From positions 181,536,001-181,600,000 of the forward strand of contig NC_042997.1 in assembly GCF_006345805.1 (NCBI RefSeq): a DNA stretch of 64,000 nt, in the 5' to 3' direction. The first letter of the stretch is position 1, and each line of letters begins with the position of its first letter. The notes beneath the pieces are model-generated. The model saw only the letters and a list, made by a program, of their open reading frames with translations, did not search any database and was not told the origin of the DNA. The translations under genes and the position numbers were made by a program. Below are positions 51,937-55,075 of this stretch, in pieces. This DNA is from Octopus sinensis (lineage: Eukaryota).

Positions 51937-52216
51937 TACATTAAATGTGTGTGTTTGTGTGTGTGTGTGTGTGTGTGTTTGTGTATGTGTGTCCCTGCGT
52001 GAGTGTATACATATATGTATGTATATATATGTCTGTATGCATATGCATGTATATTCTTATGTATCTATATCTGTATCTGTATCTGTAATCGACGGCTTAT
52101 ATTTATTTGCTGCCGATAAATTTGGCGCGAGTGCGACGATTTGAAAATTTTAGGTCAGATATTACCTTGGCAGGGTCGGAAATGCCTCGTGAAAATATTC
52201 TGTTCCGACTTGGGCT

Positions 52217-52322
52217 ATTTCTTACTGAAGAATCTGAGGGCCTATGGAAGATTGGCTTGATTTAATTTAATCAGGTTAGTTTACCATTAAACAGCAGATG
52301 AAACGTGCATCGTATAAGAATT
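52217..52322 (+). ncRNA. Type I hammerhead ribozyme, array copy 1
   Basis: ATTTCTTA CTGAAGA ATCTG..CAGAT GAAACGTGCATCGTA TAAGAA. Confidence 0.8.
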
Positions 52323-52705
52323 CAGGGTAAATGTTTTTTAAATTTTCTCCTGGTTTACGGAATTAATTTTTATTTGCGGTTGAAGCTTGGCTGTTATTTC
52401 TAGTGGGTGAATGGCCTATTATGGCCGTTCCTTGATTGTTGATGTTGAACTTAAAAATGGTCTATGACTATTAATTTTTTCCCACTAGGCCGCTGGTGGC
52501 AAAAAGATTCTACAAAATTTTTTTTGCCACCCTATATTGATTAATTATGAATTTTCTGGTTAATTCCGTAATGGATCGACGGCTTATATTTATTGCTGCC
52601 GATTAAATTTGGCGCGAGAGTGCGACGATTTGAAAATTTTAGGTCAGATTATTACCTTGGCAGGGTCGGAAATGCCTCGTGAAAATATCTGTTCCGAATT
52701 GGGCT

Positions 52706-52813
52706 ATTTCTTACTGAAGAATCTGAGGGCCTATGGAAGATTGGCTTGATTTAATTTAATCAGGTTAGTTTACCATTAAACAAGCAGATGAAACGGTGCA
52801 TCGTATAAGAAAT
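52706..52813 (+). ncRNA. Type I hammerhead ribozyme, array copy 2
   Basis: ATTTCTTA CTGAAGA ATCTG..CAGAT GAAACGGTGCATCGTA TAAGAAAT. Confidence 0.85.
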
Positions 52814-53201
52814 TACAGGGTAAATGTTTTTTAAATTTTCTCCTGGTTTACGGAATTAATTTTTATTTGCGGTTGAAGCTTTGGCTGTTATTTCTAGTGG
52901 GTGAATGGCCTATTATGGCCGTTCCTGATTGCTGTTGATGTTGAACTTAAAAATGGTCTATGACTATTTAATTTTTTCCACACTAGGCCGTGGTGGCAAA
53001 AAGATTCTACAAAATTTTTTTTGCCACCCTATATTGATTAATTATGAATTTTCTGGTTAATTCCGTAATGGAATCGACGGCTTATATTTATTTGCTGCCG
53101 ATAAATTTGGCGCGAGTGCGACGATTTGAAAAATTTAGGTCAGCTATTACCTTGGCAGGGTCGGAAATGCCTCGTGAAAATATCTGTTCCGACCTTGGGC
53201 T

Positions 53202-53308
53202 ATTTCTTACTGAAGAATCTGAGGGCCTATGGAAGATTGGCTTGATTTAATTTAATCAGGTTAGTTTACCATTAAACAGCAGATGAAACGGTGCATCGTA
53301 TAAGAAAT
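53202..53308 (+). ncRNA. Type I hammerhead ribozyme, array copy 3
   Basis: 8-bp stem I, 5-bp stem II base, stem III ACGG/TCGT; predicted cleavage after GUA at 53300. Confidence 0.87.
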
Positions 53309-53680
53309 TACAGGGTAAATGTTTTTTAAATTTTCTCCTGGTTTACGGAATTAATTTTTATTTGCGGTTGAAGCTTTGGCTGTTATTTCTAGGGGTGAAT
53401 GGCCTATTATGGCAGTTCCTTGATGTGATGTTGAACGAAAATGGTCTATAACTATTTATTTTTTTCACTAGGCCGCTGGTGGCAAAAAGATTCTACAAAA
53501 TTTTTTTTGCCACCCTATATTGATTAATTATGAATTTTTGGTTTAATTCCGTAATGGAATCGACGGATTATTTTATTTGCGCCGATAAATTGGCGCGGTG
53601 CGACGATTTGAAAATTTTAGGTCAGGATACCTGGCAGGGTCGGAAATTGCCTCGTGAAAATATCTGTTCCGACTTGGGCT

Positions 53681-53787
53681 ATTTCTTACTGAAGAATCTG
53701 AGGGCCTATGGAAGATTGGCCTGATTTAATTTAATCAGGTTGTTACCATTAAACAGCAGATGAAAACGGTTGCATCGTATAAGAAAT
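53681..53787 (+). ncRNA. Type I hammerhead ribozyme, array copy 4
   Basis: Same motif with 1-nt insertions (GAAAAC, GGTTGC). Confidence 0.72.
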
Positions 53788-54171
53788 TACAGGGTAAATG
53801 TTTTTTAAATTTTCTCCTGGTTTACGGAATTAATTTTTATTTGCGGTTGAAGCTTTGGCTGTTATTTCTAGTGGGTGAATGGCCATTATGGCCGTTCCTT
53901 GATTGTTGATGTTTGACTTAAAAATGGTCTATGACTATTTAATTTTTTCCCACTAGGCCGCTGGTGGCAAAAAGATTCTACAAAATTTTTTTTGCCACCT
54001 ATATGATTAATTATGAATTTTTTCTGGTTAATTCCGTAATGGAATCGACGGCTTATATTTATTTGCGCCGATAAAATTTGGCGCGAGTGCGACGATTTGA
54101 AAATTTGTAGGTCAGATATTACCTTGGCAGGTCTGAAATGCCTCGTGAAAATATCTGTTCCGACTTGGGCT

Positions 54172-54277
54172 ATTTCTTACTGAAGAATCTGAGGGCCTAT
54201 GGAAGATTGGCTTGATTTAATTTAATCAGGTTAGTTTACCATTAAACAGCAGATGAAACGGTGCATCGTATAAGAAT
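54172..54277 (+). ncRNA. Type I hammerhead ribozyme, array copy 5
   Basis: Intact core and stems; GUA at 54268-54270. Confidence 0.83.
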
Positions 54278-54656
54278 TACAGGGTAAATGTTTTTTAAAT
54301 TTTCTCCTGGTTACGGAATTAATTTATTTTGCGGTTGAAACTTTGGCTGTTATTCTAGTGGTGAATGGCCTATTATGGCCGTTCCTTGATTGTTGATGTT
54401 GAACTTAAAAATGGTCTATGACTATTTAATTTTTTCCCACTCGCCGCGCTGGCAAAAAGATTCTACAAAATTTTTTTTGCCACCCTATATTGATTAATTA
54501 TGAATTTTCTGGTTAATTCCGTAATGGAATCGACGGCTTATATTTATTTGCTGCCGATAAATTTGGCGCGAGTGCGACGATTTGAAATTTTTAGGTCAGA
54601 TATTACCTTGGCAGGGTCGGAAATGCCTCGTGAAAATATCTGTTCCGACTTGGGCT

Positions 54657-54761
54657 ATTCTTACTGAAGAATCTGAGGGCCTATGGAGATTGGCTTGATT
54701 TAATTTAATCAGGTTAGTTTACCATTAAACAGCAGATGAAACGGTGCATCGTATAAGAAAT
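54657..54761 (+). ncRNA. Type I hammerhead ribozyme, array copy 6
   Basis: Intact core and stems; GUA at 54751-54753. Confidence 0.83.
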
Positions 54762-55075
54762 TACAGGGTAAATGTTTTTTAAATTTTCTCCTGGTTTACG
54801 GAATTAATTTTTATTTGGGGGAAGCTTTGGCTGTTATTTCTATGGGTTGAATGGCCTATTATGGCCGTTCCTGATTGTTGATATACATATATATATATAT
54901 ATATACAATTTTTACAAGAAAATGGAAAAACAGACTTCACTTGTAAAATATAACATTTGTCACTGTGCTGTGGCAGGAGTTTTAAGTTGCTGAGTTTTCT
55001 TTCTCATATCATTACATAAAATCTATTTTATATATAATAATATAAATATGATTCAGTATATATATATATATGATA

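What the first reader, a model, noticed from the sequence alone, without database searches (positions are those of the whole stretch)
52806..53300. The cleavage-to-cleavage monomer folds into a closed, nested structure with strand-specific G-U pairs
Seen, from the monomer ends inwards: TAAGAAAT/ATTTCTTA, CAGGGTAA/TTACCTTG, TAAATTTTC/GAAAATTT(T)A, TTACGGAATTAA/TTAATTCCGTAA (12 bp) and CTAGTGGG/CCCACTAG. Local hairpins: GAATGGCC-TATTAT-GGCCGTTC, AAATGGTC-TAT-GACTATTT, GGTGGCAAAAAGA..TTTTTTTGCCACC and GTCGGAA/TTCCGAC. These helices do not cross. Several non-Watson-Crick positions are G-T on the + strand, the hammerhead strand. Inference: selection acted on a + polarity, viroid-like branched circular RNA rather than on a DNA satellite. 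In the circle, stem I reforms across the junction.
Basis: partly seen in the sequence, partly recalled or inferred. Interest (0 to 1): 0.8.

Follow-up and report, generated by a model that had tools for sequence, protein, structure and literature searches.

The report
Hammerhead retrozyme with paired Penelope-type ends
This is a young, protein-free mobile repeat of about 490 bases that carries a self-cutting RNA motif and a conserved fold; its many short arrays end at two fixed points next to AT repeats, and two-armed insertions almost always use one of each, which likely shows how a Penelope-type retrotransposon enzyme copies such RNAs into animal genomes.

Summary
The unit (52806-53300) is one of 5.7 tandem copies of a ~491-nt repeat with a canonical type I hammerhead: an animal non-LTR retrozyme, with more than 2,000 ribozyme copies in the genome. 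The fold is real (z about -4 to -7). Its inner domain covaries across relatives (17 of 49 pairs changed on both sides). The more telling evidence is at the array ends. They stop at two fixed positions (unit 132 and ~238), both inside the covarying domain, and run into (AT)n. Of 84 insertions with an inverted second arm, 77 pair one site with the other; none is a clear same-site pair. Both arms share one haplotype (20 of 21), and the join across the cleavage site is seamless. A young, intact Neptune-type Penelope element in the same genome shows the same pairing (8 of 8). Likely mechanism: a Penelope reverse-transcriptase dimer primes twice on one RNA, probably a circle. A known kind of element, with a new and testable mechanistic footprint.

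The parts
52087..54882 (+). Tandem array of 5.7 units of ~485-495 nt; one-armed insertion, 5' truncated at unit position ~265, 3' end at site 1
   Evidence: TRF period 485, 93% matches; alignment to a natural copy
52806..53300 (+).
53202..53308 (+). Type I hammerhead: stem I 53202-53209 with 53301-53308; core CTGAAGA 53210-53216; long stem II 53217-53284; GAAA 53285-53288; stem III 53288-53299 with palindromic loop TGCA; predicted cut after GTA at 53300|53301
   Evidence: sequence; allowed core variation and compensated stem I across subfamilies
52848..53068 (+). Covarying branched domain: 12-bp closing helix, GCGGT/GGCCGC, CTAGTGGG helix and three hairpins; holds both start sites in single-stranded linkers
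   Evidence: pair probabilities 0.93-0.99 in clean copies; 17 of 49 pairs changed on both sides over 13 copies of 6 subfamilies
52926..52939 (+). Site 1 (unit position 128-137), just 3' of the GGCC-TATTAT-GGCC hairpin: fixed 3' end of arms; the one used by this array is at 54882
53030..53045 (+). Site 2 (unit position 233-247), just 3' of the GGTGGCA hairpin: the other fixed 3' end; about 106 nt from site 1
53074..53101 (+).
   Evidence: 92.6% paired over 17 copies
54883..54905 (.). (AT)n tract at the 3' end of the array, the inferred target and primer
   Evidence: sequence; same context at nearly all intact 3' ends

Best explanation
It is a non-autonomous, hammerhead-bearing tandem retroelement (animal non-LTR retrozyme) whose arrays end at two fixed sites in (AT)n, likely because a Penelope-type reverse-transcriptase dimer primes twice on one RNA, probably a circle. 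Shown: canonical ribozyme sequence, a covarying fold, dispersal, (AT)n targets, two fixed 3' ends, site-1/site-2 pairing of inverted arms, one haplotype per insertion, seamless joins across the cut, near-random 5' ends with short overlaps. Inferred: (1) arrays are transcribed, self-cleave to ~490-nt monomers and are ligated to circles by a host ligase, as shown for other retrozymes (PMC7229834); (2) the branched domain binds the protein of a Neptune-type element in trans; (3) its GIY-YIG endonuclease cuts both strands of (AT)n; (4) one subunit extends one DNA end from site 1 and the other extends the second end from site 2; (5) each runs round the template for a variable number of laps; (6) the two cDNAs meet, often through 1-10 nt of overlap, and are filled in, giving a head-to-head inverted array. 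One-armed arrays such as this one would arise when the second arm is very short or lost.
For: Ends: 77 of 84 inverted arrays among 114 fetched loci are site 1 + site 2 by alignment coordinate (72 by a stricter motif call), none a clear same-site pair; 75 of 82 after counting a triplicated locus once. Five more 'one-armed' loci carry a mini second arm of the other site. Haplotype: arms agree at 20 of 21 informative loci against 29 of 616 for arms from different loci. Join: 346 of 366 exact across the cut; controls 312 of 332 and 290 of 314. 5' ends are spread over the unit and do not abut the other site (2 and 4 against 6.5 expected); both arms exceed 600 nt in 25 of 76; longest arm 6,753 nt; overlap of 1-10 nt at 45 of 76 central junctions. 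Partner class present and young: 781-aa RT + GIY-YIG frames about 99% identical between copies, ending in (AT)n at two sites 38 nt apart, 8 of 8 inverted copies with both ends seen are site 1 + site 2 (two of the 8 look like one duplicated event). Papers: two internal start sites, cleavage and extension of both strands and a predicted dimer for an anole Penelope protein (PMC11167929); inverted 5' copies, a tail at one end only and (TA)n bias (PMC8557442).
Against: No extended DNA similarity between the unit and the 20 Penelope loci examined, so the actual partner is not identified. The site spacing (~106 nt) is longer than the published 30-40 nt tail. Three loci could be same-site pairs with a damaged end (L037 132/121, L182 118/128, L113 128/128, the last starting with a site-2 tip), and one locus of the older family D has an inner 2/2 pair. 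Haplotype columns were picked as locus-fixed, which favours agreement, although the six columns shared by several loci also never disagree. L039 has variants in alternating subsets of units, which a single circular monomer would not give. 5' ends show a slight excess at the cut (7 of 152 against 3.1), and the anole paper found uncleaved RNA to be the dominant substrate in vitro.
Confidence: 0.68

Rival explanations
1. Same element and same Penelope-type twin priming, but the template is a linear uncleaved multimer transcribed from an existing array; the fold and ribozyme are selected, yet no circle is needed.
For: Seamless joins and one haplotype per insertion fit a transcript of a homogeneous array equally well. 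Unit-specific variants in L039 and the slight excess of 5' ends at the cut fit a linear RNA with a cleaved 5' end. Uncleaved RNA was the main substrate in vitro in PMC11167929.
Against: Arms of up to about 13 units need that many intact ribozymes to stay uncut. Central junctions differ at every locus except known duplications, so no source junction is copied. In L102 and L104 both arms stop near the cut but differ in unit number.
Confidence: 0.22
2. The arrays are orphan pseudo-LTR fragments shed by an autonomous Penelope element, with no life of their own.
For: Penelope elements leave truncated, inverted terminal repeats with hammerheads (PMC4209133, PMC8557442); many lone hammerhead families lie in the flanks.
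Against: No fetched array runs into an open frame; arms repeat only the non-coding unit for many laps; Penelope frames near arrays lie outside them; subfamilies keep the tandem unit down to the distant family D.
Confidence: 0.06
3. A DNA satellite spread by DNA-level events (unequal crossing-over, extrachromosomal circles), with a decayed ribozyme and a chance fold.
For: Tandem organisation; both strands fold better than shuffles; a few local duplications inside arrays.
Against: Fixed 3' ends, strand-polar 5' truncation, (AT)n targets, site pairing, core variation limited to allowed positions and compensatory changes.
Confidence: 0.02
4. Endogenous copies of an infectious viroid-like RNA that replicates RNA to RNA and is only occasionally reverse-transcribed.
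For: Highly paired unit with a hammerhead; several coexisting haplotypes.
Against: No ribozyme on the minus strand of the array; thousands of germline copies with a dedicated priming domain; nested subfamilies of different ages, as for transposons.
Confidence: 0.02

Closest known systems
Animal non-LTR retrozymes (Cervera and de la Pena 2020, PMC7229834; review PMC7761336; Li, Clavereau and Pollet 2026, 10.64898/2026.07.22.740005)
   Same: Short tandem units with a canonical type I hammerhead, GC below 45%, no LTR, PBS or coding frame, highly self-paired monomer, dispersed arrays, co-occurrence with Penelope-like elements.
   Different: Unit of ~490 nt is above the 170-400 nt of the first paper but within the 51-972 bp of the preprint. 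Those papers infer the Penelope link from co-occurrence and pLTR similarity; the review says the repeats show no motif that points to a partner. Here the insertion footprint and a covarying priming domain do. Circles are shown there, not here.
Penelope-like elements with endonuclease (Poseidon of the anole, PMC11167929; Neptune and Naiad, PMC8557442)
   Same: Two internal start sites, tail at one end only, inverted 5'-truncated second copy, AT-rich or (TA)n targets, hammerhead upstream of the start sites.
   Different: No protein; site spacing ~106 nt rather than 30-40; canonical rather than minimal ribozyme; many laps of one unit. The strict one-of-each pairing, shared haplotype and random 5' ends were not found counted in the passages read.
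L1 twin priming (recalled, not read)
   Same: Two target ends prime on one RNA and give a head-to-head inversion joined by microhomology.
   Different: In L1 the second site is variable and the arms abut; here both sites are fixed and internal, and the arms overlap the same template for several laps.
Hammerhead viroids and viroid-like satellites (recalled; review PMC7761336 passages)
   Same: Small, highly paired, ribozyme-bearing unit.
   Different: Genome-encoded, one polarity only, spread through DNA copies.

Membership tests
Non-LTR retrozyme | Type I hammerhead in every unit of a short tandem repeat | tested here: met
   Six cores at ~490-nt spacing in the window; 346 of 366 joins exact
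Non-LTR retrozyme | Low GC, no LTR or coding frame, dispersed dimers to multimers | tested here: met
   GC about 36%; 271 matches in 39 scored regions on many contigs; no Penelope-type frame in the window. PBS and PPT were not searched
Non-LTR retrozyme | Highly self-paired monomer | tested here: met
   z -4.6 to -7.1; covariation
Non-LTR retrozyme | Self-cleavage and accumulation of circular RNA | not testable with these tools
   Only assembled contigs were available; they cannot show strand, ends or circles
Type I hammerhead ribozyme | Core CUGANGA, GAAA, NUH with three stems | tested here: met
   Sequence; N7 and H17 vary within allowed letters, stem I compensates. Pair 10.1-11.1 is A-U (A-C in subfamilies B, C), not the usual G-C
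Type I hammerhead ribozyme | Match to an Rfam hammerhead model | tested here: not met
   No match at gathering score or at E up to 5; probably because stem II spans 68 nt
Type I hammerhead ribozyme | Loop I-II tertiary contact | not tested
   A conserved GGTAAA follows stem I in all relatives; its partner was not established
Element mobilised by Penelope-like machinery | Two internal 3' start sites, tail at one end, inverted 5'-truncated copy, microsatellite target | tested here: met
   77 of 84 inverted arrays; same pattern in an autonomous element of this genome
Element mobilised by Penelope-like machinery | Sequence shared with the terminal repeat of an autonomous partner | tested here: inconclusive
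   No extended match in 20 loci drawn from 149 GIY-YIG matches; only a short CCTATTAT-like motif near site 2
Autonomous Penelope-like element | RT + GIY-YIG open frame | tested here: not met
   None inside any array
Hammerhead viroid or viroid-like satellite | RNA-to-RNA replication; ribozymes in both polarities in the symmetric kind | tested here: not met
   No minus-strand hammerhead in the array; RNA replication itself not testable here

The most novel reading that the evidence does not exclude
The arrays are a fossil record of double rolling-circle retrotransposition: a telomerase-related Penelope RT dimer clamps one structured circular RNA at two dedicated start sites, each subunit extends one end of a double-strand cut in (AT)n and laps the circle independently. 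This would be the general rule behind the unexplained tail and tandem/inverted structures of Penelope-like elements, and the 220-nt branched domain would be a portable RT-loading module.
Probability: 0.45. Interest if true: 0.8.

Novelty: new member of a known kind. Interest (0 to 1): 0.62.

Why it matters
How animal retrozymes move, and how Penelope-like elements make their tails and inverted tandems, are named as open in the papers read (PMC7761336, PMC8557442, 10.64898/2026.07.22.740005). This family gives hundreds of young insertions of a small defined RNA with a near-absolute rule (one arm from each site, one haplotype). That yields a specific model that can be tested with one protein and one 490-nt RNA in an existing in vitro assay. 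It also gives the fold a likely function, and suggests a compact RNA module for targeted writing into (AT)n.

Tried and rejected
Expression: no RNA holder listed on record; eight runs were laid, all as contigs, six of them only guessed to be RNA, and no silent control stretch was laid, so nothing is claimed about transcription, strand or circles. Rfam: no hammerhead hit. The helices CAGGGTAA/TTACCTTG and GTCGGAA/TTCCGAC were rejected as conserved structure; alternatives ACAGG/TCTGT (91.7%) and the GGCA/TGCC hairpin (89.0%) hold better but show no two-sided change. G-U strand asymmetry as independent proof: rejected as mostly composition. Classical L1 twin priming with abutting arms: rejected. 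End-to-end template jumping with added bases at the cut: not supported. A single inverted master copied as DNA: rejected, since central junctions and arm lengths differ at each locus. Periodic variants as proof of a circular dimer: L039 is near-alternating but irregular, and polishing artefacts cannot be excluded. Search for a parent Penelope terminal repeat: a motif from a loose contig end was absent from the genome; Penelope frames near arrays were separate insertions. Literature: searches for retrozyme + hammerhead + octopus, cephalopod + hammerhead ribozyme, retrozyme + Penelope + target-primed, twin priming + Penelope and related terms showed no description of this family or of the pairing rule. 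The library lacks most subscription journals, and supplements were not read; the bioRxiv supplements and the supplementary figures of PMC11167929 and PMC8557442 could bear on that claim. Earlier scan notes: none for this genome or sequence.

Full report
Setting. The window is a microsatellite-rich stretch of a 2.72-Gb animal genome, G000; its size and repeat content resemble an octopus (recalled, not tested). The finding is one unit of a 5.7-copy tandem array at 52087-54882. Each unit has a type I hammerhead with a predicted cut after GTA at 52314, 52805, 53300, 53779, 54270 and 54753. Rfam finds no hammerhead, probably because stem II spans 68 nt.

The fold. The named monomer folds better than 100 of 100 shuffles (z -4.29), and three clean copies from other loci reach z -4.6, -7.1 and -6.4 as circles. 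The named copy has indels, and its own ensemble does not form the long-range nest. Fourteen cleaner copies and a second window copy form the inner helices at 0.93-0.99 where the arms could be located, and the three outer helices variably. Bystander copies in the flanks revealed older relatives D-G. On 13 copies of A-F (mean column identity 68%), the domain from the 12-bp helix inward has 17 of 49 pairs changed on both sides, against at most 5 when partners are slid; 0 of 500 shuffles reach the covariation score. The rows are related and the structure came from one of them, so this is not a probability. The energy gap between strands (about 40 kcal/mol) is matched by shuffles (about 37) and shrinks to 5-10 without G-U pairs. 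Variant types lean to G-U over A-C without significance; locus-fixed changes give 6 G-U-related, 0 A-C and 6 breaks. Polarity is better fixed by the ribozyme and the insertion ends.

The ribozyme is under selection. Across subfamilies the core reads CTGAAGA, CTGATGA or CTGACGA and the triplet GTA or GTC, the positions that may vary; stem I changes on both sides, even within one locus (L059). Stem III has four pairs and the palindromic loop TGCA, so a dimeric form is possible (sequence; dimer concept from PMC4209133, passages).

Dispersal. A search with the monomer gave 271 matches in 39 scored of 902 candidate regions. An exact pattern for the ribozyme tail occurs 2,158 times against 39 for its control; subfamily B adds 400 and a C pattern 10. 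Four coded organism labels in seven studies hold the sequence.

The ends. I examined 114 loci: the window and 38 best matches, 28 B loci from the first 100 listed, 7 C loci, and 40 loci from the first 100 matches (left out: three already fetched, one chance match and the last two). Arms end 3' at unit position 126-147 (site 1) or 233-247 (site 2) and run into (AT)n. Both sites lie in linkers just 3' of a hairpin in the covarying domain. Eighty-four loci have an inverted second arm, head to head. By alignment coordinate 77 pair site 1 with site 2 (26 of 28, 19 of 21, 6 of 7, 26 of 28); a stricter motif call gives 72; neither gives a clear same-site pair. Seven are undetermined (L037, L061, L113, L119, L128, L177, L182), three of them possible same-site pairs with a damaged end. 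L191-193 are one event. In family D, found with a site-2 query, about nine inverted loci have site 1 at the other end by alignment, but one locus has an inner 2/2 pair.

One template. Locus-specific substitutions run through all units and both arms. Arms agree at 20 of 21 informative loci against 29 of 616 cross-locus pairs; the columns were chosen as locus-fixed, but the six shared by several loci also never disagree. The join across the cut is exact in 346 of 366, like two controls. The 152 arm 5' ends are spread over the unit and do not pile up at the other site; 45 of 76 central junctions overlap by 1-10 nt, 8 are flush, 22 have a gap and one overlaps by 33; the longest arm is 6,753 nt. 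Against a simple circle: near-alternating variants in L039 and 7 of 152 ends within 5 nt of the cut against 3.1 expected.

The likely helper. A GIY-YIG search gave 149 matches. Of 20 loci fetched, most belong to a young family with a 781-aa RT + GIY-YIG frame, about 99% identical between copies. A CxxxxCxxC motif before the nuclease suggests Neptune or Nematis (criterion from PMC8557442; no tree built). It ends in (AT)n at two sites 38 nt apart; of 30 loci found with a query spanning both sites, 8 show both ends of an inversion and all are site 1 + site 2. It shares no extended DNA with the unit, so it stands for the class of helper, not the proven partner; two other related families exist.

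Comparison. Read: Li et al. 2026, parts 1-3 of 5; Frangieh et al. 2024, parts 1-2 of 4; passages of PMC7229834, PMC8557442, PMC4209133, PMC7761336 and PMC13282606; no supplements. The element meets every retrozyme feature that can be tested here. Two start sites, a one-sided tail, inverted copies and a predicted dimer are known for autonomous Penelope elements, and a rolling-circle model for retrozymes is proposed in print. What I did not find in eight searches is the insertion footprint of a retrozyme, the counted one-of-each rule, or a covarying priming domain. Two earlier scan notes describe tRNA-bearing repeats with Penelope-type ends in other genomes; they are unchecked leads.

Verdict. 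The element is a new member of a known kind. Its interest lies in the mechanism recorded by its insertions, not in the fold as such.

Noticed in passing
flanks of L031-L068, L099-L133, L164-L203, L234-L283: Dozens of other type I hammerhead families turn up as bystanders in the fetched flanks, many beside (AT)n; this genome seems unusually rich in them.
   Followed up: partly
L244:9505-9800 (-), L254-L283; L179:1395-1720; L099:143-547 (-); L237:7300-7960: Older relatives D-G keep the same architecture with different sequence; D is itself tandem (~450-nt unit), with 1,832 first-look candidates and sites about 75 nt apart.
   Followed up: partly
L234:984-7479 and L235-L247: Young, intact Neptune-type element with an upstream 479-aa frame of no Pfam family; no canonical hammerhead was found in its terminal repeat, while two related families show minimal variants by eye (L241, L035).
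   Followed up: partly
unit laid on runs X1, X2, X8 versus X15, X16: Three runs guessed to be RNA show an excess of T>C and A>G places (X2 27 and 19; X8 35 and 9; X1 17 and 4) that X9, X14 and the large runs lack; possibly A-to-I hyperediting of double-stranded RNA from inverted arms, but no matched DNA.
   Followed up: no
L102, L104, L122: Both arms stop within about 15 nt of the cleavage site, with unequal unit numbers in two of them; may mark re-cleavage or a nick in the template.
   Followed up: partly
L113:2815-2860, L133:4590-4640, L186:1900-1960, L057:8450-9476: Arms that start at site 2 and jump to the site-1 region, or switch strand repeatedly: template switches near initiation.
   Followed up: no
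L169:2470-8210; L191-L193: Local duplications that copy a whole insertion with flanks; in L169 one copy is interrupted by a LINE-like fragment.
   Followed up: no
window 26063 (-): A lone hammerhead-like motif of another family elsewhere in the window.
   Followed up: no
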